Origin: a virus
Lineage: Duplodnaviria > Caudoviricetes
DNA: 35,981 bases
Strand: one strand, 5' to 3'
IMG/VR virus record: IMGVR_UViG_3300027887_000031
Coordinates: 1 to 35,981 of that record
Shown here: positions 7,863-28,040 of the stretch, piece after piece
How the letters are laid out: each line of letters opens with the position of its first letter
How positions within the stretch are numbered: the first letter of the stretch is position 1
Program-made: the position numbers and the translations under genes
Notes under the pieces: generated by a model
The model's database searches: none
What the model was told of the DNA's origin: nothing
What the model saw: only the letters and a program-made list of their open reading frames with translations

Positions 7863-7866
7863 TACA

Positions 7867-10325: not shown

Positions 10326-10331
10326 TCTAAA

Positions 10332-11774
10332 TTAACTCCTTCCAAGTAATCTCGACACTACACCGTCAAGAACTGGATTTCCACTATTGATTATGCTATC
10401 TTCCTGCGCGGGTGTTTCGTCAGGCCCACTCTTAGCCAGAGTGGTGTTCTTTGCTACAGTTGTTTCTTTTGCGCCGACAACGGACAATCGCTTAGAAATG
10501 TGCGCGGCAAGCGAGGCAGTCGGAACCTTACTAAAAGATTCCTCCATATCCTGCGTCTGCTTCGCTTTCACTTCGTCTAGTCCAGACGCAATTTCGGTTT
10601 TGATCTGCTTTAAAGCATCAGCAATCGAGTCGGTCAGTAGCTTCACAACATCTTCGAATTCTTCTTTTGTGACAAAATCGCCAGCCACAACTTCTGTTTC
10701 CTTTTCGGTAACAGGTTCAGTAACTTCGGTATTATCCTCAGTAGTTTCCTCTGTTACAGGTTCAGTTGTTTCCGCATTCGCTTCCTTAGATTCAATTCCT
10801 TCATCTTTCGCAAGTTTCGCGGCAGAAGCATTCCCTTCCTCAATATCATTGATTTCTTGTTCACTTAGACCAATCCGAGCAAGATAATCTTTCTTATGAC
10901 TAGGAATACTCATTTCACTCTCCTTAATAATTGTGAATGAAGTCAGCTTATTTGCCGCCGCCCAAAGAGGCAAATCGCTTATTTCTTTTGTAATGTGGTA
11001 CGTGATGACACTCTTATCGTCATCATCGTACCGAATAGACGAAGATGGCATTCCATGAGATACACCTATTTCTTCGTCAATGTTTGCTAATGCTTCGGCT
11101 TCTTTCTCGTGACCAGCCAGGACTATTCCAGCCGCTAAAGCTATGCCACTATCCTCATCAAAAGCAACCCATTCTGCTTGGCCCCACTTCGTTCCTTTTG
11201 TATGCCAATGCCATAACTCAGGAAGTGGAACTGCGCCTTTATCGACCATATCGACAAAATTTATATGAGATTGTTTTGATATGATTTCGCTCGGATTGTC
11301 ATCGTCGCGGAAATTATTTGAGTATCTTGCGAACCACCGATAAGTTCCATCTTCATCTTTCCACACAGAAAGGCCAGATTCTTTAATCTTAGGTTTGTGT
11401 CCACTCTTTTCTAAACGCGACTTTAAACCAATCTTGGATTTGAAATCATTGAATAAAGCCTTTACTTTATCAAGCATGGTTTCCTGTTCTTTTGTGGTTT
11501 CTCCACTGGACTCATCAAGTATCGCATTTGCCATATCAAAATATTCTTTTACGAGCGTTTTGGCACTCGCAATTTTGTCTGGAGAATAATCCATTATATT
11601 ATAGATCATCATTTGAGAAATTGAATGGAGCATCGATAAGTCTTCAACCGCATCACCACTCTTGTCTACTTTTTCAAGATCAGAGAATGTCATTACGGTA
11701 TATGGATTCTCAACGGTATCCATAAACATCTCTCTTAATTCATCATTTATTGACTTAACACTTAAATCTGTCAT
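10332..11774 (-). CDS. Prohead protease-scaffold fusion (480 aa)
   Basis: HK97-protease-like motifs (SNNFRD..EII, ELWHWH, GVSHG, EISDLPLWAAAN) followed by an acidic, helical C-terminal scaffold-like region. Confidence 0.7.
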   Translation of the reverse strand: MTDLSVKSINDELREMFMDTVENPYTVMTFSDLEKVDKSGDAVEDLSMLHSISQMMIYNIMDYSPDKIASAKTLVKEYFDMANAILDESSGETTKEQETMLDKVKALFNDFKSKIGLKSRLEKSGHKPKIKESGLSVWKDEDGTYRWFARYSNNFRDDDNPSEIISKQSHINFVDMVDKGAVPLPELWHWHTKGTKWGQAEWVAFDEDSGIALAAGIVLAGHEKEAEALANIDEEIGVSHGMPSSSIRYDDDDKSVITYHITKEISDLPLWAAANKLTSFTIIKESEMSIPSHKKDYLARIGLSEQEINDIEEGNASAAKLAKDEGIESKEANAETTEPVTEETTEDNTEVTEPVTEKETEVVAGDFVTKEEFEDVVKLLTDSIADALKQIKTEIASGLDEVKAKQTQDMEESFSKVPTASLAAHISKRLSVVGAKETTVAKNTTLAKSGPDETPAQEDSIINSGNPVLDGVVSRLLGRS

Positions 11775-14800: not shown

Positions 14801-16276
14801 ACTGTCAATTACGCCAAAATTAAATATACTTACGTTATTGAATGTATCGTAATTATCGTATCCAGTAAATGGAGTTTGCTCTATCCCATCTATCCACCAC
14901 TGTAATGATCCATCGGATGAAGTAGAGTTTGTTGCTCTAGTGAGCATAATCTCAAACATGTGAGGCGTTGCATCCGACAAAGTGAATCCGTTTGGATAAA
15001 CTTCTCCAACATCTGTATTAACCCCAAACTGGTAATCCCAATGTCCATCATCGGTATCGTGAACTCCAAATCCAAGCATAAAAAGAAATACAGGAGTGCT
15101 ATTCCATACTTTTGCAATTACAAATAAATCGCTTGTTCCTTGTAAAGTTGTATTGGGGTCAAAATAGAAACGAACTCTAACTATTCCGGTTGTGGATGGA
15201 GATGCAAGAGTCTTTCTTGCGTATCTTACGGCTCCGTTAATATCAACTTGCATTCCTCCAGAAGTTCCAGCAAGTCCAGCGCCTGACTGCCAAGTTATGT
15301 GGCTACCAGGATCTGAAAATGACGACCATTCAGAAAGGTCTGACTTCATTTGAATATTGAATAATTCGCCACCGGAAGATGGACTTGCGGAATATGAAGG
15401 ACTTACACTTCCAGATGGACTTAAGCTTGGACTGTCACTTGATGATGGACTGACACTTGAAGACGGGCTTACGCTCTGGCTGTTTGAGCTAGACGGGCTA
15501 ACAGAAGAAGACGGGCTTACGGACGGACTAGTCGAGTTCGATGGAGATATGGACGCTGATGGGCTTGTCGATCTGCTGTTTGAGCTACTTGGACTTGTGG
15601 ATGCAGAGTTACTACTCGATGGTGAAGTAGACGCACTTACAGAACTGCTAGGACTCGTAGATGCAGAACCACTACTCGATGGCGAAGTTGATGCGCTTTG
15701 CGAACTGGATGGGCTTTGACTTGCAGACGGACTCACAGAAGGAGATACAGATGAACTTGTATCCGTAACAGTTATCTGAGGTGTTTGCGTATAAGCGGCA
15801 ATTGCGCTCGATCCGTTATATACCCGAAGATAGATTGAGTTTCCATTTGATACTTGCGATGCCGCAAGTTGCAAACACCACTCCAACTCGAAGTAGTTAC
15901 CAGCCGATCCGGTATTGGTAGCACCTCCAGTTGACTCCTTCATACCGTTGTTATCGGTTAGGAATGCTCCAGATCCTCCTGTAAGTTGAGATGTCGTGTC
16001 TGTTCCGTCTGTAAAGTTACTTGATAGCGAGAATTGAACTGGCGTAGATCCTGTAACGGCAGAGTAGTTTGTTCCGTCTGTCGAGTAATACAGGTTCCAT
16101 GTAACACTTGTCCATGCTCTAGACGCTGTTTCATCAATGAGAAAACGAACCCTAAAGTTTACAGATGGAGCCTGACTCCAGTTTGTGCTTTGGTTCGCAA
16201 TCCATGTAGCGGTTGTTTCAGAACCGTTATCATTTCTCCCGCGAAAGGCAACTTGCGTAAATGCAGGATTAGTCAT
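11843..16276 (-). CDS. Mucin-like Ser/Pro-repeat protein (1477 aa) with three beta-rich globular islands; probable virion fibre/decoration protein
   Basis: About 910 aa of SPSxSx/SPSV repeats in three tracts. Unique domains at about aa 1-173, 302-520 (LamG/ConA-like: LQWWIDG, YFDEIV) and 759-911. Basic C-terminus; no signal peptide or TM helix seen. Confidence 0.9.
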   Translation of the reverse strand: MTNPAFTQVAFRGRNDNGSETTATWIANQSTNWSQAPSVNFRVRFLIDETASRAWTSVTWNLYYSTDGTNYSAVTGSTPVQFSLSSNFTDGTDTTSQLTGGSGAFLTDNNGMKESTGGATNTGSAGNYFELEWCLQLAASQVSNGNSIYLRVYNGSSAIAAYTQTPQITVTDTSSSVSPSVSPSASQSPSSSQSASTSPSSSGSASTSPSSSVSASTSPSSSNSASTSPSSSNSRSTSPSASISPSNSTSPSVSPSSSVSPSSSNSQSVSPSSSVSPSSSDSPSLSPSGSVSPSYSASPSSGGELFNIQMKSDLSEWSSFSDPGSHITWQSGAGLAGTSGGMQVDINGAVRYARKTLASPSTTGIVRVRFYFDPNTTLQGTSDLFVIAKVWNSTPVFLFMLGFGVHDTDDGHWDYQFGVNTDVGEVYPNGFTLSDATPHMFEIMLTRATNSTSSDGSLQWWIDGIEQTPFTGYDNYDTFNNVSIFNFGVIDSVLADTTGIIYFDEIVANDTGDEIGEFVGSPSLSPSLSESPSSSTSPSSSSSRSTSPSSSSSPSISPSSSVSPSSSSSRSISPSASDSPSNAATIHVEDIVLRIGGSPSASLSPSSSGSASVSPSASISPSSSGSPSVSPSSSVSPSSSNSASTSPSSSASASASPSVSPSSSVSPSVSPSSSTSPSSSASRSTSPSASVSPSSSNSPSVSPSASVSPSSSNSPSVSPSSSPSPSSSNSPSVSPSSSVSPSSSVSPSTSPSVSPSFSVGNIPWYKVSSYSTPVGSVESGDIWSLQSDDGSELVLNEIAGTPGFTYDFLFGESESVSTPNLYLNIRGWYDGTSAHNVKIQEWNYNSSSWVNITANTTDLPDATGEQGYQFTLISNANYLSAGIVRVRITHTSPGNITHNLHLDYMYLSLTGSPSASLSPSPSVSPSSSVSPSVSPSSSVSPSSSVSPSVSPSASVSPSSSASPSVSPSASVSPSSSASRSTSPSASVSPSSSNSPSVSPSSSVSPSSSSSRSTSPSASLSPSSSGSASVSPSRSTSPSSSNSPSVSPSSSVSPSSSNSPSVSPSASVSPSSSNSPSVSPSASISPSSSGSASTSPSSSPSPSAGSPSSSLSPSRSTSPSSSVSPSVSPSASTSPSSSGSASTSPSRSTSPSSSNSPSVSPSASTSPSSSGSRSTSPSASVSPSSSGSPSVSPSTSVSPSSSASPSVSPSASTSPSSSGSRSTSPSTSLSPSSSVSPSVSPSASVSPSSSTSQSVSPSSSNSTSASPSTSPSSSASSSLSLGSPSSSISPSSSVSSSASRSASPSSSNSPSISPSSSESRSTSQSSSSSPSASPSVSPSVSPSVSSSSSRSQSPSASVSPSVSPSVCASLSPSSSLSPSSSVSPSESSSASRSLSPSASVSPSVSPSVSPSVSPSVSASISPSASLSPSGSTSASISPSRSVSPSSSSSASVSPSPSAVQAFRCLRRPLRRNKLKKWL
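11909..13543 (-). repeat. Coding Ser/Pro repeat tract 3 (545 codons)
   Basis: Degenerate SPSxSx hexamers and SPSV tetramers. Confidence 0.95.
14003..14716 (-). repeat. Coding Ser/Pro repeat tract 2 (238 codons, interrupted by NAATIHVEDIVLRIGG)
   Basis: Direct translation. Confidence 0.95.
15374..15757 (-). repeat. Coding Ser/Pro repeat tract 1 (128 codons)
   Basis: Direct translation. Confidence 0.95.
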
Positions 16277-16574
16277 TCATAGCTTCCTCTCGCGCTTTGG
16301 AATATATCTCGTCAAACAATTTTGTTGGTATTGTTCTTCCGAATAAAACTTTCTTCCAGCCAGAACTCATCAAGTAATCATACAACCCAAACTCGTCAAC
16401 GCCTTCCCATCCCCAACTTTGGAATATATAGAAGTCTCCGGTAATTAGTCTCCATCCTTTCGCATTATCTTCACTTTGAGAAATGACAATAACTCCTTGC
16501 GCTGGAGCATTTTCAGGATAACCACAATACATGCTTTTATCTTCGTAGTAAATTCTGTATGTGCATGGTTTCAT
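16269..16574 (-). CDS. Hypothetical protein (101 aa)
   Basis: Start reassigned to ATG 16574 (MKPCTY), which overlaps the upstream TAA (TAATG). Confidence 0.75.
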   Translation of the reverse strand: MKPCTYRIYYEDKSMYCGYPENAPAQGVIVISQSEDNAKGWRLITGDFYIFQSWGWEGVDEFGLYDYLMSSGWKKVLFGRTIPTKLFDEIYSKAREEAMND

Positions 16575-18919
16575 TATGCTTCTATCCTTACCTGAACATA
16601 GCCAAGCGAAGTGAAAGGAACCGTATATGCGTTCCACGATGCTCCCTGACAGGCCGCTATTGAATTACCGTGCCTGTAGAACAAGCTTGCACCATCTCCG
16701 GCAGCATAAACATTCTGCAACAGCGTTACCGAGAATGCTCCAGTAAGAACAACTTCACTTTCCATATACTCGGCGGAATCAAGATCAACGGCCTCTGCAT
16801 TTCCAGTACCGGAGATGGCTCCTGTACCTGTCCAGTTTCCAGCGAACGTCCTAATATTATCTTCCGTTGCTCCTGTAATATGACCCCAAACGACACTTCC
16901 AACAATTGCAGAAGGACTTGGGCTTGCGCTTGCGCTCGGAGAAATAGATGGAGATACAGATGACGATCCAGACGTTGTGTACTCTACAATAAGTTGTGGT
17001 CGATACGATGCGGTTCCATACTCTCTCAACGCGATATGATTCGAACTTGAGTTTGTCGGCTTTATCAAAAGACCATAGTTAGAGTTAGAGCCTCCAATCC
17101 AGTTCTGAACCGTACTTACACTAAGCTCAACATTGTATATTCCAATTGGCTGACCGCTGAGTGTAAAAGATCCAATTGTGGATGAAGAAATATCTGTTCC
17201 AGTAACTCCACAACCATTTGACCCTCCAGCCCATGCTACCTGAACAGTGTCCGATCCTGTTGATTCTTTTGCATTCCAACAAGGTTCTCCGGATAAAGCT
17301 TGTGTAAGATTTCCTGTTCCTTCGATCCATCCACTATTCGCAGAAAGAACCGCATATATATCTCCATTGCCTCCGCCTTCATACAACCCTAACCGGATAT
17401 AGGCTCTTGTTACTGTAGACCCAGATGGGATAGACGAGATATCAAAATACATCAATCCAAAGTTGTAGCTTCCAAACTGGACTGCGTTATGTACACCACC
17501 GTTCGCCCAACCGCTAAGTGCTGTTTGGTGCAAGTTTACATCTCTGGCGCAATTTGCGGTCAAGATACCAAAACCAGCAGACGGACTTGGAGATGCGCTT
17601 ACCGAAGATGAGGGCGTTATGCTTTGAGATGAACTCGGACTTAGCGATGCACTAGGAGAAACGCTTGGAGACTGACTAATGCTCGATGAAGGGCTTAATG
17701 ACGCTGATGGGCTTACGGATGGGGATACAGATGAGCTTTCTCCAGATTCTTCTTGAACAACCCAATAAGGCCACAATGCTCCAGATACAGTTGCGGAAAA
17801 GTTCTGAGTAAAACCATTCGTGTCAAATGAAACAAAAGATGATTCAAATCTCGCCGCACCGTCATCGTTGTGCAGTATTGAGAGAACATTGTCTGCGGTG
17901 CTTTCTGTATTCGAAGTCGTTACGCCATCATCTGTAGCAACCGCATGAGTATACTGTGCTGAACCATCTGAAACACTAACTCCAATAGCTCCAGCTTTAT
18001 TTGTTGTATCAATCGTATTATCGACATCAACATTCGTCAAGAACTGCATTACAAACTGCGGCTTGAAGCCAGGATCGGCTACTCCAAAGTTTCCTGTGCT
18101 TGCTGGAGTAGTTAATCTTCCTGCGAACGATGAGAAATTCGAAATTCGTAATGCAAGATATCCTAACTGGGCCGCCGTTCCTGTTGTTGAGTTTCTTGTT
18201 GTAACCGTGAAGCCATTTGCGCTATATGCCGTAATCTCTGCGGAGAATTGATTTGCCGCATGAGTTCCGTGTATTGCAACATAAGAGTCGTCTGATGCGG
18301 CTCCAGCGGCTGTTGTTGTAACTCCACTACGATCAGAGTGCCTGACTGCATATTGAACGTCTGATGTTCCATTATGAGCAACACCAAATGAGATATTCGG
18401 ACTTGACGCATGACAACAAATAAGGTCTGTTGGCTCAAACGAAAGGCTTGATACACTTGCAGTACCATCAAGAGTCGTACTGCACGATAACGCTCCTGCC
18501 GTAGCTGATACATCTGTTCCGCCAATAAGCACGACCGTAAGATACATCGCGGAAGGAGGCGGATAAGTGCTGTTATTGTGTAGTCTTACTCCATCCGTAA
18601 TGAATGATACAAAGTCAACATTTATATAGAATGAGCCGCCAGTAGTAAGCCCATAAACTACACTCGATGTACTGAATGTGCTCTGCGCCGCTGTGGTTGT
18701 TAATCCATGTCCAGATACCGTAGATCCCGCCCACTGATTGCTCGAACCCGTAGCGGCCCCCATCCCGATCTTTCTTTCGTCTGCCGTTCCATCGGCTGTA
18801 TTGTAAGACCAGAAAAACATAGCCGCAACAGGAGTGCCAAAACCAGAGATAGTTACATCCCAATTGGTGTTGGCACTCGTGTTCATTGCAACGCGAGTGG
18901 TTTGGATCTTTAATGTCAT
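16574..18919 (-). CDS. Beta-rich virion protein with a DNRLRE/CBM96-like domain and two SPSxSx linkers (781 aa)
   Basis: FDISSIPSGSTVTRAYIRL...VQNWI...NYGLLIK...REYG...RPQLIVEY is the DNRLRE-domain pattern; Ser/Pro linkers flank it. Confidence 0.75.
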   Translation of the reverse strand: MTLKIQTTRVAMNTSANTNWDVTISGFGTPVAAMFFWSYNTADGTADERKIGMGAATGSSNQWAGSTVSGHGLTTTAAQSTFSTSSVVYGLTTGGSFYINVDFVSFITDGVRLHNNSTYPPPSAMYLTVVLIGGTDVSATAGALSCSTTLDGTASVSSLSFEPTDLICCHASSPNISFGVAHNGTSDVQYAVRHSDRSGVTTTAAGAASDDSYVAIHGTHAANQFSAEITAYSANGFTVTTRNSTTGTAAQLGYLALRISNFSSFAGRLTTPASTGNFGVADPGFKPQFVMQFLTNVDVDNTIDTTNKAGAIGVSVSDGSAQYTHAVATDDGVTTSNTESTADNVLSILHNDDGAARFESSFVSFDTNGFTQNFSATVSGALWPYWVVQEESGESSSVSPSVSPSASLSPSSSISQSPSVSPSASLSPSSSQSITPSSSVSASPSPSAGFGILTANCARDVNLHQTALSGWANGGVHNAVQFGSYNFGLMYFDISSIPSGSTVTRAYIRLGLYEGGGNGDIYAVLSANSGWIEGTGNLTQALSGEPCWNAKESTGSDTVQVAWAGGSNGCGVTGTDISSSTIGSFTLSGQPIGIYNVELSVSTVQNWIGGSNSNYGLLIKPTNSSSNHIALREYGTASYRPQLIVEYTTSGSSSVSPSISPSASASPSPSAIVGSVVWGHITGATEDNIRTFAGNWTGTGAISGTGNAEAVDLDSAEYMESEVVLTGAFSVTLLQNVYAAGDGASLFYRHGNSIAACQGASWNAYTVPFTSLGYVQVRIEA

Positions 18920-18923
18920 GCTA

Positions 18924-19283
18924 TTAGCTCGTAATCAACCAATTCCAAACTTGTTCAGGAGTGGAGAAAGCCTGTTTGTTTCTTAACTCATACCACATCA
19001 AAATCGTCTGCCACCAGAGTAATGCTCTATCTCTTGCATTCACATTGCTTGTATTATCTTTCGATGTCATACGAGCAAGCAGATCGTTCCAATCCTGTTC
19101 TTCCTGAGCGGATAAAACCGGATTGATTTGAGCTAACACTGTTTGGTTCGATATGTACCCACCGAGAATACCACTTGCGGCTCCGATAAAATCATGAATT
19201 GGAATATTCAGATTAGAAAGATCATCTTCGTAATCTTGGCATATTCTGTGCATCAATCTATTTGTTCTTACTGTTTGCGCCAT
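18924..19283 (-). CDS. Hypothetical protein (119 aa)
   Basis: ORF with a GAGG SD, tightly packed in the operon. Confidence 0.75.
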   Translation of the reverse strand: MAQTVRTNRLMHRICQDYEDDLSNLNIPIHDFIGAASGILGGYISNQTVLAQINPVLSAQEEQDWNDLLARMTSKDNTSNVNARDRALLWWQTILMWYELRNKQAFSTPEQVWNWLITS

Positions 19284-19284
19284 A

Positions 19285-20877
19285 TTACCTCTCTAAAAGA
19301 TTGAGTGGCTTTCCCCACCCAGGAACCTCATCAGCCTCTTTCCATCCCTTCGCATATTTCTTATTGCGAAAATCGTCAACGCTCCACTTGCTTTTTGTCA
19401 AGTTCGAATCATGACGTATGCAAACGTTTGGAGCTTCTGACTGATACATTTCAGAACCGTACTTTCCGCCTTTGTGATATCCATAAATAGACTGATTGCA
19501 TCCTGGCTCATAATGACCGTCAAAACCTTTCTGCTCAATCTGCTGTATCTTCTTTGTATAGAAGTCAATCAGGAGTTCTCTGTTAGCGCAAATTCCGCTA
19601 ACTTGCTTTAGGTCATCTGTCCATACAGAGTGTCCATCTGGATATCTTGTCTTCCAAACATTCGTGTTGTAATAAAATATATCGTCTTTTTTAGGAGTGA
19701 AAAGAAAATGTGACGGATGGTAAAGAACGTCTGACTCGCACAAGAATACATACTTTGCATCGCTATTCATAAGTCCTTGCAAAATCTGTCTGTGCATCAT
19801 CTCTGGCCCTCTCTGTCCATCCATCCTTAATCTTGTATCTCCAAAATCTATATCTTTATTAAGAGACACGCTGATAATATTGAGTCCAGATTTCTTCAAT
19901 TGTTCTCTACACGCAGTTTCAATGTCAAGACTATGTGTATTGCACGTATAATATATTATATCCTTTTTCGCTGGAATATAATCTTCCCAATCTGGAGGAC
20001 TGAACTTTTTGATAAGCCATTCAAAAGAATATTTTGCGCCTTCCCATTTATTATCAGCAAAAAGCTCTTTCGATTTTTCTCTATTTCGAATAACAAGATT
20101 GCCTGGGTTTGGATACGGAAATCCAAAGTCTCCACCTTTTGTTCTAAACATGTGAGCGTACCAAGTTTTTCTATTTACAAGAACCCTTCCGCCACTTAGC
20201 CATGTTTTACAGGCGACCTCAACCCCTTGCTGGCCCCACGAGTGAAAATCCTTCTCCGAACTGATGTCCAATTCAAAATACTTTTCTCTCGTTAGCATAA
20301 AGCAAGATCCCTGCAAAGACATTGTTTCCGTAAGATCGCCTATTTGCCTGGATCCGAACTCGTTCCAATATTGGAAATGCATATCTCTGTCGAAACGATA
20401 GGCCGTACTCTGCGGATTTGTTTTCGCTATCCATACAACTTCCATCTCTGTTGGTTCACCGCATTCTTCACAAGGCCCACTTATTCCCTGATACCGACGA
20501 TGGTTGTTTTTGCATAGCCAGTTGAATGCATGAAGATTGCGCATCACCGGAGCCATCGTAATATCCGGTTCCATGCTTTCCATCATTGTTACGTCGAAGC
20601 CAGGAGCAAACGCACAATGAGCGTCAACCTTCATGATATACTTAGTTGACGGATCTGTAATTCTTGCTCCTTGATTTGTAGCAGCTCTCTGACCTATCGA
20701 TTCGCTGTTGTGAATGATAATAACATCTTTATGATCTTTTATGCCAGGATCAGGCCAGTATCCATCAAGAACTGCGATTACCTGTGTGCTTCCTTTTTTA
20801 TTATCTAATATATCTTTGATTGTATTCGTGAGAAATATTTCATTTCTTGCTGGAATGATAATAGATAAATCGTACAT
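19285..20877 (-). CDS. Two-domain GT-A glycosyltransferase; N-terminal domain is ppGalNAc-T (GT27)-like
   Basis: SIIIPARNE, MKVDAHC (DxH), WGQQGVEVACKTWLSGG...AHMFR; second domain has VFLCESDVLY. Confidence 0.88.
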   Translation of the reverse strand: MYDLSIIIPARNEIFLTNTIKDILDNKKGSTQVIAVLDGYWPDPGIKDHKDVIIIHNSESIGQRAATNQGARITDPSTKYIMKVDAHCAFAPGFDVTMMESMEPDITMAPVMRNLHAFNWLCKNNHRRYQGISGPCEECGEPTEMEVVWIAKTNPQSTAYRFDRDMHFQYWNEFGSRQIGDLTETMSLQGSCFMLTREKYFELDISSEKDFHSWGQQGVEVACKTWLSGGRVLVNRKTWYAHMFRTKGGDFGFPYPNPGNLVIRNREKSKELFADNKWEGAKYSFEWLIKKFSPPDWEDYIPAKKDIIYYTCNTHSLDIETACREQLKKSGLNIISVSLNKDIDFGDTRLRMDGQRGPEMMHRQILQGLMNSDAKYVFLCESDVLYHPSHFLFTPKKDDIFYYNTNVWKTRYPDGHSVWTDDLKQVSGICANRELLIDFYTKKIQQIEQKGFDGHYEPGCNQSIYGYHKGGKYGSEMYQSEAPNVCIRHDSNLTKSKWSVDDFRNKKYAKGWKEADEVPGWGKPLNLLER

Positions 20878-21446
20878 TATTTCCTCATAATTACGAGACG
20901 ATCATCGAAGTGACGAGCGATTGGAAATGTTATTAATTCAGCATTGTATTGCTTTAGGTATTTCGCAACCTTGTCGCTAACAACATCTTCAACAATATAT
21001 ATTGCACCGTCTTTTAGAAATGGCATAATATCAAGACACGTATTTACTTGAGACTTAAGCGTGTGAAGACCATCGTCAATCACAATATCAACATCGTCTC
21101 CAACGTCAGACATAAGGCGAAACACATCTTCGGTATGCGTTTGATCGCACTCGAATGTTTTTATTCTATCTGCCTCAAACAATATATCTTTATTAATATC
21201 AGCACCGTATATCTGAGCGTTCGGGAAGAAGTCGCGCCACATATACAGGCTCGCTCCGATTGTGTATGTTTTAGGTCGCTCCATTACTGCTGGATATCCA
21301 ACTCCGATCTCAAGAAATTTCTTGACATCATTTCGCATATCCTTAAATAGCTCATAGTAATATGGAGTAAATGGATGTTTTATCTCGTAACACTTATCGG
21401 ATCCATACTTGTATGCAAGATGACATAGCTCAGTCCATAAGTTCAT
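20877..21446 (-). CDS. Class I SAM-dependent methyltransferase, MycE/TylE-like sugar O-methyltransferase type
   Basis: YGSDK...H...YY, LEIGVG, IYGADI, DQ, DIVIDDGLH, YIVED. Start set at ATG 21446 (ATGA overlap with the upstream stop). Confidence 0.85.
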   Translation of the reverse strand: MNLWTELCHLAYKYGSDKCYEIKHPFTPYYYELFKDMRNDVKKFLEIGVGYPAVMERPKTYTIGASLYMWRDFFPNAQIYGADINKDILFEADRIKTFECDQTHTEDVFRLMSDVGDDVDIVIDDGLHTLKSQVNTCLDIMPFLKDGAIYIVEDVVSDKVAKYLKQYNAELITFPIARHFDDRLVIMRK

Positions 21447-22117
21447 TGTTTCGCCCAAAACCAAGATCGAGATGGATCGCGTATTTCTTCACCCGTCTTT
21501 TCCTGCGATCCAAGAATAAACCAGGGCTTGATTGCATAAGCTTTTGTATACCCATCCACAACATACTTCACATGAATTCTGGCTTGCTGTCGATATGTTG
21601 TATAATCGTGTCCAGCAATAATTCCGCCTTTCCTCACCTTGAAAGACCACTCATGAATATCATTCGTGCAATTCTGGAAGTCGTGATTTCCGTCGATATA
21701 AACGAAGTCGAGTGAATTGTCTCCGAACATCTTGATTGCGTTCAAACTCGTGTTTCTGATAATTGTGCTGTTTGGATATCTTGAAAGTATTTTCTTTGCT
21801 TTTTCGTAATACCCTTCATGAAGTCCTTGATCAATCGTAAGACCGTCACCGTCTATGTGAGGTTCACCGTGTTCAAAGTAAGTGCCAGCATACCAGGGAT
21901 CGATGCTGTATATCTTTGCATTCGGATTTTCGTTGCAAAGAACAGCCGAGTATTCACCACTCTTAACACCTATTTCAGCGCCTGTTGAAAACTTCAATTC
22001 ATTGAAAAGAGCGGCGAGATTATTTCGCCCGAAGTTTGGAATCACTACGGGCATTTTTCCTTCGATCTCTTTATGTATACCGAATTTATTTGTGATGTAT
22101 TCAATCGTGTCAATCAT
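21443..22117 (-). CDS. Class I SAM-dependent methyltransferase (Methyltransf_24-like)
   Basis: GAEIGVKSG, IDPW, LDFVYIDGNH, GGIIAGHDY. Confidence 0.9.
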   Translation of the reverse strand: MIDTIEYITNKFGIHKEIEGKMPVVIPNFGRNNLAALFNELKFSTGAEIGVKSGEYSAVLCNENPNAKIYSIDPWYAGTYFEHGEPHIDGDGLTIDQGLHEGYYEKAKKILSRYPNSTIIRNTSLNAIKMFGDNSLDFVYIDGNHDFQNCTNDIHEWSFKVRKGGIIAGHDYTTYRQQARIHVKYVVDGYTKAYAIKPWFILGSQEKTGEEIRDPSRSWFWAKQ

Positions 22118-22995
22118 TTCTTAGAAGCCTTTATTTCTTTCCAGTTTTCGGGCCAATTCGGGAGAGGCCAGAACTTATCAATAAGCCACTCGATATCATG
22201 TATTCTTTCTTCCCATCTGTTGTTCCACCAGAAGTCGAACGAATAAGCATTTCCTCTAAGTCTCTCCGATGATGATAAGAAGTACATTCTTCCGTATTGC
22301 TTTCCTTTATGGAGATGCGCATAGTATGTATTCTTGTTTACCATGACTCTGCCATGCCAGGGGCCAAGTTGTGTCTTAAATCCAATCTCCTGCGGTTCGC
22401 CCATGAATGTCTCGTACCCTATGTTGTCCATTCCTTTAATCCTGTCAACAAAGTGTTCTTTCCACATGAACCAACAACTTCCCTGAAAAGTCATATCTTC
22501 ATATACGGTTTTGTCTTTCAGGAATTCACGGCGCTCGCTCCACGTTCTTCCATGCAAACCAGGATCATGCTCATGCCCTGGAGTAAATGGATAGAAATAA
22601 TACATCGAATCTACTGGAGACTTATCATTCAGCTTCCAGTTCTCTGCATCAAGACTATATCGCCTTGGAATGATAATCTCGTTATCTTCGCAGTCACGCT
22701 GTAGTATCTCGTCAAAACCTGGGCCAAACAAACAATGTGCGTCTGTCTTCATGAGATACTTGCCAGTGGCTATGGATGCCGCTTCGTTAATTGAAGTTCG
22801 CATTCCTTTGGAAACATCATGAACAATTGTTCTAATTCTTTTGTCATCCGGTAAAACTGGATGCTCTGCCCTGTCATAACCATCGAGAACTGGAATCACT
22901 TCAATATCGCCAGTAGCCTTCTCTAAGATGTCCTCTACTGTTTTCTTTAGAAACAGTTCGTTTCTCGACGGTATCAGTATTGATACTCTACTCAT
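22114..22995 (-). CDS. GT-A glycosyltransferase, ppGalNAc-T-like paralog of 19285..20877
   Basis: SILIPSRNE, VLDGY, MKTDAHC, QGSCWFM, EIGFKT...GRVMVNKNTYYAH. Confidence 0.88.
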   Translation of the reverse strand: MSRVSILIPSRNELFLKKTVEDILEKATGDIEVIPVLDGYDRAEHPVLPDDKRIRTIVHDVSKGMRTSINEAASIATGKYLMKTDAHCLFGPGFDEILQRDCEDNEIIIPRRYSLDAENWKLNDKSPVDSMYYFYPFTPGHEHDPGLHGRTWSERREFLKDKTVYEDMTFQGSCWFMWKEHFVDRIKGMDNIGYETFMGEPQEIGFKTQLGPWHGRVMVNKNTYYAHLHKGKQYGRMYFLSSSERLRGNAYSFDFWWNNRWEERIHDIEWLIDKFWPLPNWPENWKEIKASKK

Positions 22996-23013
22996 TCTAT
23001 TCCTCTTTATAAC

Positions 23014-23625
23014 TTATGGTTTTGCCCAAAATACGGTGTACTCTGGCTCTTTATCGACTTTCACAAGATAGTCGCAAATAAAAAACTCGTTGATCTGATG
23101 AGCCTTTGTGTATACATCAACTGCCTCAACAACTCCGGCTCTACTGAAACGGTAATAATCATGTAGTGCAATAATACCGTTTGACTTCACTTTTCTTCCC
23201 AACGAGATAAGATCCTCCATTACGTAATCGAACTCATGGTTCCCATCAATATAAATAAAGTCAAGGCTTTTATCCTTGAATTCGCCAACGGCTTCCATAC
23301 TTGTCTTTCTAAGTATGGTTACTCCGTATGGATCTAATCTTTCATGAGCAAGTTTGAAACAGCGTTCATGCTCATCGGTAGAGTTTTTCCAATGGTATTT
23401 CATATACGGATCGACGCAAGTCAACTTGATCCCGTATATGCTCTGGCATAGCTGTAGTGCGTACAATCCCTGAGCGGTTCCGACTTCGACTCCGTTAAAG
23501 AGCCTAATCTCATTTAGATACTCCGCTAGATTTCTTCTTGTAAATCCTTTGATACGAACCGGAATTGATTGAGAACTTTTCGGATTGAACCTTTCGTGTA
23601 AAACCAAAGGTAAATTATCAGTCAT
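23014..23625 (-). CDS. Class I SAM-dependent methyltransferase (Methyltransf_24-like), paralog of 21443..22117
   Basis: GVEVGTAQG, VDPY, LDFIYIDGNH, GIIALHDY, and a shared C-terminal FWAK. Confidence 0.9.
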   Translation of the reverse strand: MTDNLPLVLHERFNPKSSQSIPVRIKGFTRRNLAEYLNEIRLFNGVEVGTAQGLYALQLCQSIYGIKLTCVDPYMKYHWKNSTDEHERCFKLAHERLDPYGVTILRKTSMEAVGEFKDKSLDFIYIDGNHEFDYVMEDLISLGRKVKSNGIIALHDYYRFSRAGVVEAVDVYTKAHQINEFFICDYLVKVDKEPEYTVFWAKP

Positions 23626-23839
23626 TTCTATCGCCTTCGATAATTACAGCGAGAATTGCGCTTGCGGCATTCTTCGGCTCAATCTTCACCTGTTTCGGAG
23701 AAGTCCATGCTTGCGGAGTTCCTTCGCTGTCAACAAGTATATTGATTGACAAAATCGAAAGCCCTTCGCTTTTTGATACACTCTGTAATCTTCTGATTAC
23801 AGAGAACCATTCTTTTTGTATGTCATCTGGAACTATCAT
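23618..23839 (-). CDS. Hypothetical protein (73 aa)
   Basis: Fills the operon gap and overlaps the next start. Confidence 0.7.
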   Translation of the reverse strand: MIVPDDIQKEWFSVIRRLQSVSKSEGLSILSINILVDSEGTPQAWTSPKQVKIEPKNAASAILAVIIEGDRND

Positions 23840-23845
23840 TATTTA

Positions 23846-24349
23846 TCACCAACCGCGCTCGGTTCTTAACACTCTGCTAACCGCATTCGCTATTTTTGTT
23901 TGAAATTTCTTTCTTCTTTTTTCTTCAAGAGTTTTGATAAAGTTTCTTGGCGCTATTCCTGGCCTTGGCTCTTTTGTGTTTATATACGCAACTCCGTCCA
24001 ATCCTCTTGATTTGAGAGTAAGTTTTCCCGATTCTGATCGAACCTTATAATCTTTATCCATCGTAGCATAACGGACGCTTGTTCCCTGATCTACAAAGTA
24101 GAAATACATATTGTCGATAAATACCTTGACGCTGATAAGATTAGACTTTTCTTCTTCTTCGTACTCAACAACAATTGTCTCAGGAGCCCACCAATCATAA
24201 GTGAGTTTATCTAGTATTCGCTTCTGGATCTGCCCTTCTTCTCTCGTTACCCTCATTATTTCTTTTCTGAGCTTATTCTTTACTACTTGGCTGTCCGTAA
24301 GACCTTCAAACAAAAATGGGCCAACTATTCTTTGAATAACGATATGCAT
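23846..24349 (-). CDS. HK97 gp10-like morphogenesis protein (167 aa)
   Basis: FVDQGT...PGIAPRNF resembles the gp10-family E.GT...PG..P.PF pattern. Confidence 0.5.
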   Translation of the reverse strand: MHIVIQRIVGPFLFEGLTDSQVVKNKLRKEIMRVTREEGQIQKRILDKLTYDWWAPETIVVEYEEEEKSNLISVKVFIDNMYFYFVDQGTSVRYATMDKDYKVRSESGKLTLKSRGLDGVAYINTKEPRPGIAPRNFIKTLEEKRRKKFQTKIANAVSRVLRTERGW

Positions 24350-26052
24350 TATTCCTCCAAGTCTGCTTGCTGATCACCGCGTATAACAACCTCATCTCTA
24401 CCTAATTTTCTGCCAAACCGTTCCTCTTGAGAAGAATTATCATTCCCTGGCTTTGCCGACCCTGATCTCGCCTGACCATCACCTGATGCTTCTCCGGTTG
24501 GCCTGTTGGCCCTTCCGGTAAGAGACTGCATCATAATCTGTTGCTCAAACATTTCCTGTTCCATAAGCGGCTTTTCGTACTTCTGATAAATTGCCGCTAA
24601 TGCTCTGCGAGATTTCTTTACAAGATTAACATCTTTCGAAGTCATGATAATCTTTTGAATATCTGTCTTTTTCTTCTCGAAGTTAGCATCGGTTGTTCCA
24701 GACAAGAGCATCACGTAATCTTTATCTTCGCTTTCAAATAATATTTCGACATCAAGACCGTCCACGAGCCTTCCGTCAGATAACTCAAGTTCTTCGAATT
24801 GTTCCAAAGATATCTCTTTGTTTTCCAACATCAACTGTCTCTCGAGTCTAACATTAGTTACGGAAGTAATCAAGTCCCGCTGGCGAGATTGTGATCGAGT
24901 TGCGCGTATCTCTGCGGCCTGTCTGTCCTGAGCATCATCTTGATAGTCAAACACAAGTTGAAGATACGGAGGAAGCATTTTTGATCCGCATCCTGTCTCT
25001 GTGATCTGGAGGATCTGGCCTGGGCCTTTCCCTCTCTGCTTCATGTGCTGAACGATTGCATCAGCTTTTGAAGCGCCACCCTCCATCATCGGGAATAGCT
25101 CTTTGGCATCCATGCCAAAAGCCATAGCGATTACACTCATGCCGAGTATGGTGGATTCCTTTTCATCAAATCCATCTGGCAGAGAAGCAAGGTCAATTTC
25201 CTCAACTCTTGGATCGAGTATGTTTCTGTTACCCGCAACAATTGTTTTCGAGAATCTAGTAAATCCAGCATTGCTCATAGCCCGTTCTGACATCTGAACC
25301 GCAAGCTGGATATCTTCTGGATCCAACCCGCCTCCAGTGATCATCAGTTTTCTCGGAGGCCGACTGCCAAGTTTTTCCTGCTTATATGTTGAAATGTCAA
25401 TCAGGTTCTGTGTTGAGTTGATTGCCCTACTTGCCGCGCAGAATCCAACTCCACACATCCTAACATCCGTAGATGGTTGCTGTGACGCGAACCAAACACG
25501 CGAGTAATGAAGCTTGTACATCTTCCCTGAAATATCTTCATACACTACCGGATATTCTGGACTTCCTGTTCTTAAGCATCTGGCGGAGTCCATGTGAGCA
25601 ATCGAGATTGGCATTCCTGTAAGCGGGCCATCTTTCTTTCCTGGGCCGATAATTTCAGCGAACGCCCCGTTGTCCTGTGTCAGAAGATCCTCAATAAACT
25701 TTCCGTAGAACGCAACCCATCCTTCGCCGAATTGAGAACCATTGATGATAACATCCGTGAATTCCTCTGCGGCCTTAACGTGAGTTTTGATTGATTTGTC
25801 TTTTGCTTCTACCTTCACCGGAATTGCTGTCATCTTCGCGCACATGTTGAATACAGCACCGGATAGGTGGTCGGATGACTTTGTGAACGATCTAAGCTCC
25901 AAGTCACGCCTTCTACTCCACCAGGGCGCAATAATATCATTAACCTTCGCCAGAAGCATCATCAGCGATATCGGAGCGCCGATCATCTGTCCCTGGCTTG
26001 CGCTTTGTACGCTGTTCGCTAAAGCCTGTTCCATTACCGTATCATTAGGCAT
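24349..26052 (-). CDS. Portal protein (567 aa)
   Basis: Immediately after terL; FIEDLLTQDNGAFAEII and IAMAFGM are portal-like segments. Confidence 0.85.
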   Translation of the reverse strand: MPNDTVMEQALANSVQSASQGQMIGAPISLMMLLAKVNDIIAPWWSRRRDLELRSFTKSSDHLSGAVFNMCAKMTAIPVKVEAKDKSIKTHVKAAEEFTDVIINGSQFGEGWVAFYGKFIEDLLTQDNGAFAEIIGPGKKDGPLTGMPISIAHMDSARCLRTGSPEYPVVYEDISGKMYKLHYSRVWFASQQPSTDVRMCGVGFCAASRAINSTQNLIDISTYKQEKLGSRPPRKLMITGGGLDPEDIQLAVQMSERAMSNAGFTRFSKTIVAGNRNILDPRVEEIDLASLPDGFDEKESTILGMSVIAMAFGMDAKELFPMMEGGASKADAIVQHMKQRGKGPGQILQITETGCGSKMLPPYLQLVFDYQDDAQDRQAAEIRATRSQSRQRDLITSVTNVRLERQLMLENKEISLEQFEELELSDGRLVDGLDVEILFESEDKDYVMLLSGTTDANFEKKKTDIQKIIMTSKDVNLVKKSRRALAAIYQKYEKPLMEQEMFEQQIMMQSLTGRANRPTGEASGDGQARSGSAKPGNDNSSQEERFGRKLGRDEVVIRGDQQADLEE

Positions 26053-27520
26053 TTGTGTCTCCCAAGTTTATAATTTTCATTCTCAAACCAGTACCAGGGC
26101 GAATCGTAGATATTAGATATCTTTCAGCATCAAGCCTATGGAACGTGTTTTTGTTCTCAATATCGGAGATAACATCGCCTTCTTTGTTCCTTTTGCGACG
26201 ATATCTGCCTTTCTCATCCAGTATACCACTTAGATTCTTGAAATATATGACAGAACTCAAATTATGCAATGCGTATACCCGACTGATACCTAAATCAACC
26301 TCATCGGTAAGTGGAGGCATAATCGGAAGCCCATGCTGTCCGAATTCCATTCTCCACTGGTCTTCCGACCTAGCGCCACCATAAGCAACCGGAACTCCGT
26401 TTTCGTATTTCAGGATATCCTTGACGTGCTGTTCTATTGCTTTCCCGCCGCCAAGGTATTCTCTGTAGCAGTACAGCTTTCCGGTTCCAGGTTCCTCAGC
26501 GTAATACATCGCCGCCGTATGAGATCCACCAAAGTCAACACCAAGATAGCGTCTCCACGATTCCGGTATTTCGAACGGAGGGCAAACATGCTTTGTCGGA
26601 TCGAATGTATCGTAGATCAAGAATCTGCGTGATGCCTTTCTTCCACGATAAAACATCTGGAATTCTTCATCAGACAGAAGCTCTTTCTGTTCATTGTACT
26701 CATCCATCGGAAATGCTGGATTGAGGATCGAGTCAAACTGAACCACAATCGTATCACGCTTTACAGAGTCCGTCACTTCAAGTTCCGCACTACCATGCGT
26801 CTCGAATGCCGTGTTTCCTTCCGCAACCGCTGGATCGATCACCTGTTGAGTAAACCATCCAATGTTGTACAGAGTTGTCGTCATGAGCATTCTTCCGCGC
26901 TTCAACGCTATTCTTCTTCGTATAGCCTTGTAAGCATCCAGCGAGAACCGATCCTGACCGCATTCATCCAGCCAAGCCGCTTTTGCAGTAGCAGACTCTA
27001 ACCCGCCGAGTGCATCTGCCGAGCGGAGGATAATTCTCCCCCACATATTATCCGTTGCGCGTTTTGCAAGGAATTTGCCTGTCACCGGATCCGCAAGCTC
27101 AATAATCCTATCTCCGCCCCAAAACCGACCAAGCTGAAATATTCCATCAAACACCGCCAGCATACTCGGAAGCATTTTTAGTTTGAACAAATCAAACGAA
27201 GCTGTTACCGCAATATAATCTCCAGGCCCACGCTTTTCGTAAACTTCCCTAAGTATCCACCACGGCCCCCAAGATGTTTTGCCAGACTGACTGCCAGCGC
27301 TCATCACAACGCTTCTTCGGTCTGCGTCCCAAAGTATGTTCTGCGCCTGATGGAACGGGATCGGCTTAAAATCCTCATCGTGAAGATTCCTATCAGGCCA
27401 TTTTTTCATTTGTTCTGTATAAAAGGTATGTTCTTTACTCGCTTTGTCCTTCAACAAAGCTACCTTCAACGATATCTGCGCTTCCGGTGTCAAGTAATTT
27501 AGTAACGAATTCTTTTCCAA
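26045..27520 (-). CDS. terL: Terminase large subunit
   Basis: Walker A AGSQSGKT, Walker B AWLDE, coupling motif TTT, nuclease LGVDFG and HRLDAERY; TTG start with GGAGG SD. Confidence 0.95.
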   Translation of the reverse strand: MEKNSLLNYLTPEAQISLKVALLKDKASKEHTFYTEQMKKWPDRNLHDEDFKPIPFHQAQNILWDADRRSVVMSAGSQSGKTSWGPWWILREVYEKRGPGDYIAVTASFDLFKLKMLPSMLAVFDGIFQLGRFWGGDRIIELADPVTGKFLAKRATDNMWGRIILRSADALGGLESATAKAAWLDECGQDRFSLDAYKAIRRRIALKRGRMLMTTTLYNIGWFTQQVIDPAVAEGNTAFETHGSAELEVTDSVKRDTIVVQFDSILNPAFPMDEYNEQKELLSDEEFQMFYRGRKASRRFLIYDTFDPTKHVCPPFEIPESWRRYLGVDFGGSHTAAMYYAEEPGTGKLYCYREYLGGGKAIEQHVKDILKYENGVPVAYGGARSEDQWRMEFGQHGLPIMPPLTDEVDLGISRVYALHNLSSVIYFKNLSGILDEKGRYRRKRNKEGDVISDIENKNTFHRLDAERYLISTIRPGTGLRMKIINLGDTNA

Positions 27521-27992
27521 GTTCTTCCTCCGCCTGTTCTCGTGTGACTTTCCCCTGCTTAATCAAGTCTATGATTTCCGAGTGCCAATCACTCACTTCG
27601 ACCTTCGAGTGAACTGGAGCATAAAGGCCAAACAACATCGCCCTCTGATGCATTATCTTTAAAATACGATCCACGTACTTCACATCGCCTTGTAGAGCCT
27701 TCGGCATCAAAGCGGTTTGAAGATCATCGAGCCTGTTCATTTCCAATATGCGCAAGTCATTTGCATTTTCGGACATCTCCTTCTTGATCTTATCAATCTC
27801 AAATTTAACATCACGCCAAACATACCGTTCATCATAACTCGGTGGAAGCATTTCGGCCCCGAACCTGCTAACAACTTCGGTAAATATGCTTCTGTAATCT
27901 AATCCAGCAGAACGAAGTTGCAGAGCATATCTCCGTCTATCGACAGCCGATATATTTCTTTTGCTCATAGCGCCGTAATTATTGTCAGCCAA
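27435..27992 (-). CDS. terS: Terminase small subunit (HTH)
   Basis: Directly upstream of terL; ALQLRSAGLDYRSI HTH and RAMLFGL motif. Start placed at TTG 27992 (GGAG 7 nt upstream); ATG 27968 is an alternative. Confidence 0.75.
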   Translation of the reverse strand: MADNNYGAMSKRNISAVDRRRYALQLRSAGLDYRSIFTEVVSRFGAEMLPPSYDERYVWRDVKFEIDKIKKEMSENANDLRILEMNRLDDLQTALMPKALQGDVKYVDRILKIMHQRAMLFGLYAPVHSKVEVSDWHSEIIDLIKQGKVTREQAEEELGKEFVTKLLDTGSADIVEGSFVEGQSE

Positions 27993-28040
27993 AATTATTC
28001 TCCAGGGCCAATCCAAACTTTTGTGTACATATTTTGTGTA

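What the first reader, a model, noticed from the sequence alone, without database searches (positions are those of the whole stretch)
19285..22995. Two phage glycosyltransferases carry polypeptide GalNAc-transferase (GT27)-like signatures
Seen: both have DAHC in place of a DxD motif. The 530 aa protein also has WGQQGVEVACKTWLSGG...YAHMFR, and the 293 aa paralog has FMGEPQEIGFKTQLG...YAHLH. Established: eukaryotic ppGalNAc-Ts, which initiate mucin O-glycosylation, use a DxH motif plus a WGGEN.E.S.(R/K).W.CGG...VGH.FR motif whose His binds Mn. Inference: these enzymes act on protein Ser/Thr rather than being generic GT2s. Some bacterial GT2s also carry DxH, so the motif alone does not prove the acceptor.
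Basis: partly seen in the sequence, partly recalled or inferred. Interest (0 to 1): 0.85.

Follow-up and report, generated by a model that had tools for sequence, protein, structure and literature searches.

The report
Phage mucin-type sugar-coating enzyme pair
An uncultured soil/wetland phage carries two soluble enzymes whose closest solved relatives are the animal enzymes that start mucin sugar-coating, and across related viral DNA they sit next to proteins made of serine-proline repeats, so the phage likely sugar-coats its own predicted fibres, although no sugar has been observed and it is probably not the animal one (GalNAc).

Summary
The motifs are there. Both enzymes are closer to polypeptide GalNAc-transferases (GT27) than to any GT2: Z 26.8 and 26.0 to GalNAc-T1, next family 19.9 and 18.3.

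They are two old, distinct paralog classes. The 530-aa class keeps the Mn ligands and the three aromatics of the GALNT Pro-x-Pro peptide pocket, invariant in 153 of 153 domains. It has lost the GalNAc-binding Glu334 and Arg208, and carries a second GT-A-type domain where GALNTs have a lectin. The 293-aa class keeps the Glu but lacks the pocket.

A Ser-Pro repeat protein lies beside the enzymes in 45 of 45 viral loci of 15 kb or more, against 0 of 24 control loci. Six sister phage records (55-80% complete) show neither.

Best reading (0.65): the long enzyme likely primes Ser in the phage's repeat proteins; the other domains and three methyltransferases would extend and cap the glycan. Donor unknown; GT27-like, not a shown member.

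This scan found the same cassette before on other DNA (8 notes listed). Ten literature searches found no description; Freeman 2023 was unreadable.

The parts
19972..20877 (-). 530-aa enzyme, N-terminal GT27-like domain (residues 1-302): D85-A-H87, H242, W214, R245; pocket aromatics F168, Y170, F244; Q217 in place of GALNT Glu334; Cys-rich insertion C122/H126/C136/C139 (possible zinc site, inferred)
19285..19971 (-). 530-aa enzyme, C-terminal domain (about 303-530): second GT-A / NDP-sugar-type fold with E381-x-D383 and H489 invariant in 95 of 95; no Pfam family; also occurs as a free gene in related loci
   Evidence: (IspD-type chains Z 12.6-12.9 over 302-530; tandem-GT chains 2z86 and 8viw align over 1-507)
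22114..22995 (-). 293-aa GT27-like paralog: D85-A-H87, H227, E200 (equivalent of Glu334), G149/T151/H229 in place of the pocket aromatics
23014..23625 (-). 203-aa SAM methyltransferase (Methyltransf_24), first gene of the cassette
   Evidence: E 1e-15; relatives in 62 of 86 enzyme-anchored viral loci
21443..22117 (-). 224-aa SAM methyltransferase (Methyltransf_24)
   Evidence: E 4.5e-15
20877..21464 (-). 195-aa SAM methyltransferase (weak Methyltransf_24/31; PHROG 21658)
18924..19283 (-). 119-aa protein of no known family; its homolog in L255 also precedes a homolog of the 781-aa protein
16574..18919 (-). 781-aa protein with two Ser-Pro repeat tracts (390-449, 647-672) flanking a DNRLRE domain; candidate acceptor and predicted virion fibre or decoration
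   Evidence: NF033679, 49.5 bits, cut-off 34
16269..16637 (-). 122-aa protein of no known family; its homologs precede repeat-free fibre homologs in L246 and L135
11843..16276 (-). 1477-aa protein, 582 Ser and 161 Pro; repeat tracts 171-303, 518-585, 595-761, 908-1461 (922 residues) between three globular domains; main candidate acceptor
24349..28016 (-). Upstream context: small terminase (inferred from position), large terminase (26045-27520), 567-aa portal (inferred from position and size)
   Evidence: for the large terminase only
8931..11774 (-). Downstream context: 480-aa protease/scaffold and 464-aa major capsid protein (both inferred from position, size and synteny; no family match)

Best explanation
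The two genes belong to a mobile phage cassette (11843-23625) of GT27-like enzymes, methyltransferases and Ser-Pro repeat proteins, which likely makes an O-glycosylated, mucin-like stalk on predicted virion fibres. Shown: fold, motifs, gene order, co-occurrence. Inferred, in order: (1) the soluble enzymes work in the host cytoplasm late in infection; (2) the N-terminal domain of the 530-aa enzyme uses Mn2+ (D85, H87, H242) and a nucleotide sugar to put the first sugar on Ser, reading a Pro three residues downstream through F168/Y170/F244, probably with retention of configuration as in GT27; (3) the 293-aa paralog, which lacks that pocket, and the C-terminal GT-A domain act on already glycosylated repeats, adding neighbouring sugars or extending the chain; (4) the three Methyltransf_24 enzymes O-methylate the sugars; (5) the coated tracts become stiff, protease-resistant spacers between the globular domains. 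The first sugar is probably not plain GalNAc, because two residues that hold its 4- and 6-hydroxyls are replaced.
For: Fold: Z 26.8 (rmsd 2.5, 261 aligned) and 26.0 (rmsd 3.0, 272 aligned) to GalNAc-T1 8v9q; 25.0 and 25.4 to Toxoplasma GalNAc-T3; next family 19.9 and 18.3, of 48,161 chains. Foldseek lists only GALNT chains at the top. Pocket: F168/Y170/F244 align to GalNAc-T1 F265/W267/F346, which are T2 F280/W282/F361, described as recognising Pro-x-Pro, with W282A and F361A almost inactive (PMC4432651, passages). They are among only 27 of 302 columns invariant in 153 long-class domains. Acceptor link: repeat ORF in 76 of 86 enzyme-anchored viral loci, 45 of 45 of those 15 kb or longer, against 1 of 79 control loci (0 of 24 long ones), and that one also holds the enzymes. 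It lies within 1 kb of an enzyme gene in 71 of 76. Sister phages with a 52-72% identical capsid gene have no enzyme match in 6 of 6 records and no repeat in the DNA fetched; in L246 and L255 homologous fibre domains occur without Ser-Pro repeats and without the enzymes. Of three complete genomes sharing one fibre domain, one has both repeat and enzymes and two have neither in what was examined. Register: 139 of 559 Ser/Thr in the repeats have Pro at +3; 4-spaced units also give Pro at -1, the positions GalNAc-T2 favours (bioRxiv 2020.06.25.171371, passages). Both paralog classes are kept together in 78 of 86 loci, short before long in 76 of 78. No hydrophobic anchor in any cassette protein. 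Precedent: Corndog has glycosyltransferases and a methyltransferase between portal and protease (PMC4351075, passages).
Against: No activity, glycan or expression data. The F168/Y170 alignment rests on a moderate-confidence HMM stretch (posterior 5-6) plus a matching hairpin in the model; coordinates could not be inspected. The canonical T/S-P-x-P sequon is rare (Pro spacing of 2 occurs 4 times in the 1477-aa protein), and Pro at +3 follows almost automatically from the even spacing. Acceptors would be Ser (524) rather than Thr (35). In cellular genomes 10 of 44 loci of 15 kb or more have the enzyme but no repeat protein by my criterion. L247 has a repeat without the enzymes, in a fragment 17% complete. 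The loci are not independent: 77 long domains fall into 47 clusters at 70% and 13 at 60% identity, and only the best 80 of 552 were examined. Virion location of the repeat proteins is inferred from gene position only.
Confidence: 0.65

Rival explanations
1. Donor variant of the best reading: these are true UDP-GalNAc:polypeptide transferases, functional GT27 members.
For: GALNTs are the best matches by sequence and fold. W214, H242, F244 and R245 are invariant. 15 viral and 14 cellular loci carry an epimerase whose representative is closer to WbpP (3e-52) than to UDP-xylose synthase (7e-32).
Against: Glu334 and Arg208 bind GalNAc O4 and O6 (PMC4388629, passages). Their equivalents are Gln (146 of 153) and Thr (121 of 153) in the long class, and Arg208 is Ile/Val in the short class; Ala307 and Gly309 are mostly Gln and Ser in both. 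No epimerase gene lies in this window's cassette. Sugar-supply genes vary between cassettes: dehydrogenase-like, heptose-type kinase and isomerase, RGP mutase, aminotransferase.
Confidence: 0.18
2. Both enzymes are glycan-extending transferases that act on a sugar placed on the repeats by another phage or host enzyme; the GT27 likeness reflects ancestry only.
For: The short class lacks the pocket: F361 equivalent is His in 105 of 120 and 25 of 31. The clade that holds GT27 also holds sugar-acceptor GT7 and chondroitin polymerases (PMC7185993). The long enzyme's two-domain layout aligns with tandem-GT polymerases.
Against: Invariance of the three pocket aromatics in the long class. No other candidate initiator is common to the cassettes: after the two enzymes and the methyltransferase the next cluster is in 28 of the 86 viral loci. 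The phage's GT4/GT2 fusion (2612-5608) is kept in sister phages without repeats.
Confidence: 0.12
3. The acceptor is something else: major capsid or tail proteins as in mycobacteriophages, or a host surface polymer, with the repeat proteins only travelling along.
For: Same genomic slot as the Corndog genes. Capsid and tail-tube glycosylation is reported for Che8, Corndog and Myrna (PMC12363180, passages citing Freeman 2023). The family also occurs in Patescibacteria and other assembled genomes, some without a nearby repeat.
Against: The cassette sits on unrelated backbones: only 1 of 86 loci shares this phage's capsid gene or terminase by BLAST, yet the repeats follow the enzymes. Corndog gp36-38 have no DxH; gp37 and gp38 give no significant profile match. 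No membrane anchor.
Confidence: 0.08
4. The enzymes glycosylate phage DNA, as phage hypermodification glycosyltransferases do.
For: Phage DNA glycosyltransferases exist (10.1101/2023.12.21.572611, search listing only). PHROGs labels two of the methyltransferases 'DNA methyltransferase'.
Against: Position among head genes, link to repeat proteins, peptide-pocket conservation. Pfam places those methyltransferases in Methyltransf_24, not a DNA methylase family. No base-hydroxylating gene cluster among the cassette neighbours scanned (20 clusters).
Confidence: 0.02

Closest known systems
Eukaryotic polypeptide N-acetylgalactosaminyltransferases (CAZy GT27; GalNAc-T1 8v9q/1xhb, GalNAc-T2, Toxoplasma GalNAc-T3 8uhv)
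   Same: GT-A catalytic domain along its whole length (Z 25-27), DxH, C-terminal His, Trp331 and Arg362 equivalents and Pro-x-Pro pocket (long class); Ser/Pro-rich candidate acceptors.
   Different: No membrane anchor, no ricin lectin (a second GT-A-type domain instead, or nothing), Glu334 and Arg208 replaced, Cys-rich insertion, 16-21% identity, phage and Patescibacteria genomes, clustered with methyltransferases and its own substrate.
Protist and prokaryotic polypeptide alpha-GlcNAc-transferases (CAZy GT60; Dictyostelium Gnt1, T. cruzi)
   Same: DxH, no lectin domain, soluble cytoplasmic members, Ser/Thr or Hyp acceptors (PMC7185993 and PMC8724618, passages).
   Different: Pfam PF11397 gives no match. 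No GT60 chain appears in the fold lists, so that comparison is open.
Mycobacteriophage virion glycosylation (Corndog gp35-38, Che8 gp110, Myrna; Freeman et al. 2023, seen only as cited in PMC11256854 and PMC12363180)
   Same: Phage-encoded glycosyltransferases plus an O-methyltransferase between portal and head protease; virion proteins as targets.
   Different: No DxH in Corndog gp36-38; no profile match for gp37 or gp38; no full-length match to either enzyme in 50,697 GenBank phage records; reported targets are capsid and tail tube, not a dedicated repeat protein.
Serine-rich repeat glycoproteins of streptococci and staphylococci (Fap1, GspB, PsrP with GtfA/GtfB; recalled, and named in earlier scan notes)
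   Same: Ser-x repeat protein encoded beside its own cytoplasmic glycosyltransferases.
   Different: Those use a GT-B (GT4) initiator, accessory Sec and a wall anchor (recalled). Here the candidate initiator is GT-A/GT27-like, the repeat has regular Pro, and no hydrophobic segment is seen.

Membership tests
GT27 ppGalNAc-T | GT-A fold nearer to GALNT catalytic domains than to other GT-A families | tested here: met
   Z 26.8 and 26.0 against 19.9 and 18.3
GT27 ppGalNAc-T | DxH plus C-terminal His as Mn ligands | tested here: met
   D, H, H in 153 of 153 long; D 151, H 148, H 151 of 151 short
GT27 ppGalNAc-T | Gal/GalNAc-T motif with both Trp331 and Glu334 (T2 numbers) | tested here: not met
   long keeps W (153) but has Q at 334 (146); short keeps E (117 of 120) but mostly F at 331 (83 of 120)
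GT27 ppGalNAc-T | Arg208 binding GalNAc O4 | tested here: not met
   Thr in the long class, Ile/Val in the short class
GT27 ppGalNAc-T | Pro-x-Pro pocket F280/W282/F361, 530-aa enzyme | tested here: met
   F168/Y170/F244 invariant in 153 of 153; by sequence alignment, not by coordinates
GT27 ppGalNAc-T | Pro-x-Pro pocket, 293-aa enzyme | tested here: not met
   G149/T151/H229
GT27 ppGalNAc-T | C-terminal ricin-type lectin domain | tested here: not met
   short enzyme ends with the catalytic domain; long enzyme's second domain is alpha/beta and matches NDP-sugar folds; no ricin family in Pfam
GT27 ppGalNAc-T | N-terminal type II membrane anchor | tested here: not met
   maximum 19-residue hydropathy 0.81 and 0.56; first strand starts at residue 4
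GT27 ppGalNAc-T | Retaining transfer of GalNAc from UDP-GalNAc to Ser/Thr | not testable with these tools
   needs an assay
GT60 pp-alpha-GlcNAc-T | DxH and no lectin domain | tested here: met
   for the definition
GT60 pp-alpha-GlcNAc-T | Match to Pfam PF11397 | tested here: not met
   (0 of 116 short-class members at E<=0.5)
GT60 pp-alpha-GlcNAc-T | Structural or tree placement with GT60 | tested here: inconclusive
   no GT60 chain among the listed fold hits; no GT60 sequence was available for a tree
Generic GT2 | PF00535 match over cut-off | tested here: met
   38.8 and 55.2 bits, N-terminal Rossmann part only
Generic GT2 | Best structural neighbours are GT2s | tested here: not met
Mycobacteriophage virion glycosylation cassette | Glycosyltransferases and O-methyltransferase between portal and head protease | tested here: met
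   portal and protease here are inferred from position
Mycobacteriophage virion glycosylation cassette | Homology to Corndog gp37 or gp38 | tested here: not met
   probabilities 0.1-6%; gp36 was read for DxH only; Che8 and Myrna genes were not fetched
SRRP glycoprotein system | Ser-x repeat protein beside glycosyltransferases | tested here: met
SRRP glycoprotein system | GtfA/GtfB (GT4) initiator, accessory Sec and wall anchor (recalled) | tested here: not met
   no such Pfam family in the cassette; no hydrophobic segment; the window's GT4 domain is unlinked to the repeats

The most novel reading that the evidence does not exclude
Phages and Patescibacteria hold a large, old, lectin-less sister clade of GT27 that performs mucin-type Ser O-glycosylation in the cytoplasm with a division of labour: a proline-pocket initiator, a pocket-less follow-up paralog, a third GT-A domain and methyl caps. 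It travels as a plug-in that converts plain phage fibres into synthetic-mucin-like brushes, and it may mark the prokaryotic or viral stock from which eukaryotic mucin glycosylation arose.
Probability: 0.4. Interest if true: 0.9.

Novelty: new variant of a known kind. Interest (0 to 1): 0.76.

Why it matters
Mucin-type initiation is regarded as a Golgi chemistry of eukaryotes. A soluble, anchor-free and lectin-free relative encoded with its own repeat substrate in hundreds of viral contigs (552 in IMG/VR) would extend it to phages and ultra-small bacteria. It makes the origin of GT27/GT60 testable with a tree, gives a natural set of donor-site and pocket variants for dissecting GALNT specificity, and could supply cytoplasmic enzymes for O-glycosylating repeat proteins in laboratory bacteria. 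It would also be a second, unrelated route to glycosylated virions beside the mycobacteriophage one.

Tried and rejected
Complex prediction of the long N-domain with Mn and 34 repeat residues gave no answer (score 0.02, mark 0.32); it is used neither for nor against.

A collection-wide scan for the repeat itself was not completed, so the reciprocal question (do all repeat proteins have the enzymes?) rests on small sets anchored on terminase and fibre domains.

No RNA holder was listed. PHROGs has no family for either enzyme or for the repeat proteins; NCBIfam gives only weak sub-cut-off GT2 hits for the short enzyme. The 224-aa methyltransferase has no PDB sequence match. MAFFT did not align the short class over columns 162-170; the pairwise and profile alignments were used there. 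The host could not be assigned: no cultured phage matches the capsid gene and homologs carry no informative names. The Pfam scan of all 95 long-class members was over the size limit and not repeated.

Rejected: assembly artefact; recent DNA slippage as source of the repeat (all six Ser and four Pro codons in use, only short weak DNA arrays); the GT4/GT2 fusion at 2612-5608 as part of the system (kept in sister phages without repeats); identity with the Corndog enzymes. No tRNA. Freeman 2023 and its supplements could not be read; they may name GALNT-like phage enzymes.


Full report
OBSERVATION. Both genes and all quoted motifs are present. The window is a 35,981-base virus record, 45% complete by CheckV; runs that hold it are wetland and soil metagenomes, and contigs of four runs cover 18000-24400 without listed base differences, one of them possibly the source. 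On the - strand the order is large terminase, predicted portal, two small genes, methyltransferase, 293-aa enzyme, two methyltransferases, 530-aa enzyme, 119 aa, 781-aa repeat protein, 122 aa, 1477-aa repeat protein, predicted scaffold and capsid. Portal, scaffold and capsid are named from position and synteny only.

FAMILY. Pfam calls both enzymes GT2 on their N-terminal part. All 15 PDB matches of the long enzyme are GALNTs. Profiles give E 3e-11 and 1.5e-8; for the short class a GT2 scores higher but over 84 positions only. AlphaFold models are confident (pLDDT 95.5 and 93.5). Against 48,161 chains they give Z 26.0 and 26.8 to GalNAc-T1 and 25.4 and 25.0 to Toxoplasma GalNAc-T3, with the next family at 18.3 and 19.9; Foldseek agrees. 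Residues 303-530 of the long enzyme form a second alpha/beta domain matching NDP-sugar folds at Z about 12.9, with E381-x-D383 and H489 invariant in 95 of 95, where GALNTs have a lectin. The families are large: 3093 and 6670 hits (the second search scored only its top 7999 candidates), 552 viral stretches, 159 genome stretches, and no full-length match in 50,697 GenBank phage records.

ACTIVE SITE. I mapped residues on GalNAc-T1 through the alignment and converted to T2 numbers by an offset of 15, which reproduces the residue types named in PMC4388629 and PMC4432651 (passages); T2 numbers for the metal ligands follow from that offset. From the 166 enzyme-anchored loci and control locus L104, distinct domains of 230 residues or more were kept: 304 with the two window proteins, 153 long and 151 short, which split with support 1.0. 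Both classes keep D-x-H and the third His. The long class keeps W214, R245 and F168/Y170/F244, equivalent to the Pro-x-Pro pocket; these are among 27 of 302 invariant columns. It replaces Glu334 by Gln (146 of 153) and Arg208 by Thr (121). The short class keeps Glu (117 of 120 in its main group, 22 of 31 in the divergent group), has mostly Phe for Trp331, His for Phe361, and G149/T151 at the hairpin. So peptide recognition points to the long enzyme, and GalNAc as donor is doubtful. The hairpin alignment is of moderate confidence and was not checked on coordinates.

ACCEPTOR. The 1477-aa protein has 922 residues in Ser-Pro tracts with Pro spaced mostly by 6, 4 or 10; 139 of 559 Ser/Thr have Pro at +3. 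Across 112 repeat proteins the 6-unit is P-S-(A/S)-S-(V/I/L/E)-S. All Ser and Pro codons are used and DNA-level arrays are short, so the pattern is kept at protein level. GalNAc-T2 favours Pro at -1 and +3 (bioRxiv 2020.06.25.171371, passages), but the canonical T/S-P-x-P is rare here. A repeat ORF (at least 4 SPS, and 50% Ser+Thr in 40 residues) occurs in 76 of 86 enzyme-anchored viral loci: 45 of 45 at 15 kb or more and 31 of 41 shorter. In 79 control loci (72 anchored on the terminase, 7 on the GT4/GT2 fusion) it occurs once, with the enzymes. Only 1 of the 86 shares this phage's capsid gene or terminase by BLAST, so the link holds across backbones. The loci are related, though: 47 clusters at 70%, 13 at 60%. 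Six sister records have no enzyme match (55-80% complete); in four of them (L088, L090, L091, L093) the slot before the scaffold and capsid genes is seen empty. Among 23 loci anchored on non-repeat fibre domains, 5 had seeded the alignments and were set aside; of the other 18, 1 has both repeat and enzymes, 1 has the repeat only (a 17% fragment), 16 have neither. Against: in cellular genomes 10 of 44 long loci have no repeat protein.

MECHANISM. Shown: fold, motifs, order, co-occurrence, absence of anchors. Inferred: cytoplasmic priming of Ser by the long N-domain, follow-up by the short paralog and the C-domain, methyl capping by the three methyltransferases, and a stiff glycosylated stalk between globular domains, one of them DNRLRE and one with features near polysaccharide-lyase-like or CBM clusters (a lead only). 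Confidence 0.65. Sugar-supply genes differ between cassette copies, which leaves the donor open. A uronic-acid donor would fit Glu-to-Gln beside the invariant R64, but that is speculation.

COMPARISON. It works like GT27 but fails several membership features (motif Glu, Arg208, lectin, anchor), so I file it as GT27-like. GT60 shares DxH and lacks the lectin (PMC7185993, PMC8724618; passages), but PF11397 does not match. Corndog has a cassette in the same slot (PMC4351075, passages) with unrelated enzymes. The SRRP comparison is recalled.

NOVELTY. Ten full-text searches (two of them on GALNT residues) found no paper on phage or Patescibacteria GT27-like enzymes with Ser-Pro repeat substrates. 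The library lacks most subscription journals. Freeman 2023 was seen only as cited and could not be read; I recall, unverified, that a GALNT-like label has been used for a mycobacteriophage enzyme. PMC13738210 and PMC2884959 (passages) added nothing. No supplements were read. This scan noted look-alikes in 23 windows of 21 genomes and listed 8 reports with the same reading; they are not independent support. I had the reading before that call; they gave the leads to Patescibacteria, Corndog, SRRPs and the sequon. What this window adds is the residue-level split between the two paralogs and the sister-phage control. Verdict: real, new variant of a known kind, interest 0.76.

Noticed in passing
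window 2612-5608 (-): 998-aa fusion of a GT4-type domain, two GT2 domains and a C-terminal helix-hairpin-helix, placed among head-tail genes and conserved with its neighbours in six sister phages that lack the GT27-like cassette: a second, independent glycosylation gene. The 243-aa gene at 5863-6594 travels with it.
   Followed up: partly
window 20461-20514 (-), residues 122-139 of the 530-aa enzyme: Cys-rich insertion C122, H126, C136, C139 (C122 and C136 in 153 of 153, C139 in 151), absent from the short class; possible zinc site.
   Followed up: partly
L246:1704-4925 and L255:10001-12124: Homologous fibre domains carry other repeats (about 39-residue VxDxxVxTQVD-type units in L246, Gly/Ala/Thr-rich units in L255) where this phage has Ser-Pro tracts: stalk types appear interchangeable.
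   Followed up: partly
L030:6658-7620, L028:681-1088, L054:6574-6960, L030:9246-10010, L177:9138-9995: Other copies of the cassette carry GHMP kinase, SIS isomerase, cytidylyltransferase-like, a short UDP-sugar dehydrogenase-like protein lacking the C-terminal domain, and an RGP mutase-like protein: phage-borne sugar supply differs between copies.
   Followed up: partly
window 28431-28513: 22-bp direct repeat, about 3.5 copies, in the long non-coding stretch upstream of the terminase genes where GC skew changes sign; possible origin iterons or packaging region.
   Followed up: no
window 6591-8817 (-): A DNA methylase (N6_N4_Mtase, 423 aa) and an RNase H-type exonuclease (316 aa) lie directly behind the predicted capsid gene; same order in L087.
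   Followed up: no
L166-L245: The long enzyme occurs in 159 stretches of species-representative genomes; the 80 shown are largely Patescibacteria by title, with two DPANN archaea and several labelled Gammaproteobacteria. Prophage or chromosomal status was not examined.
   Followed up: partly
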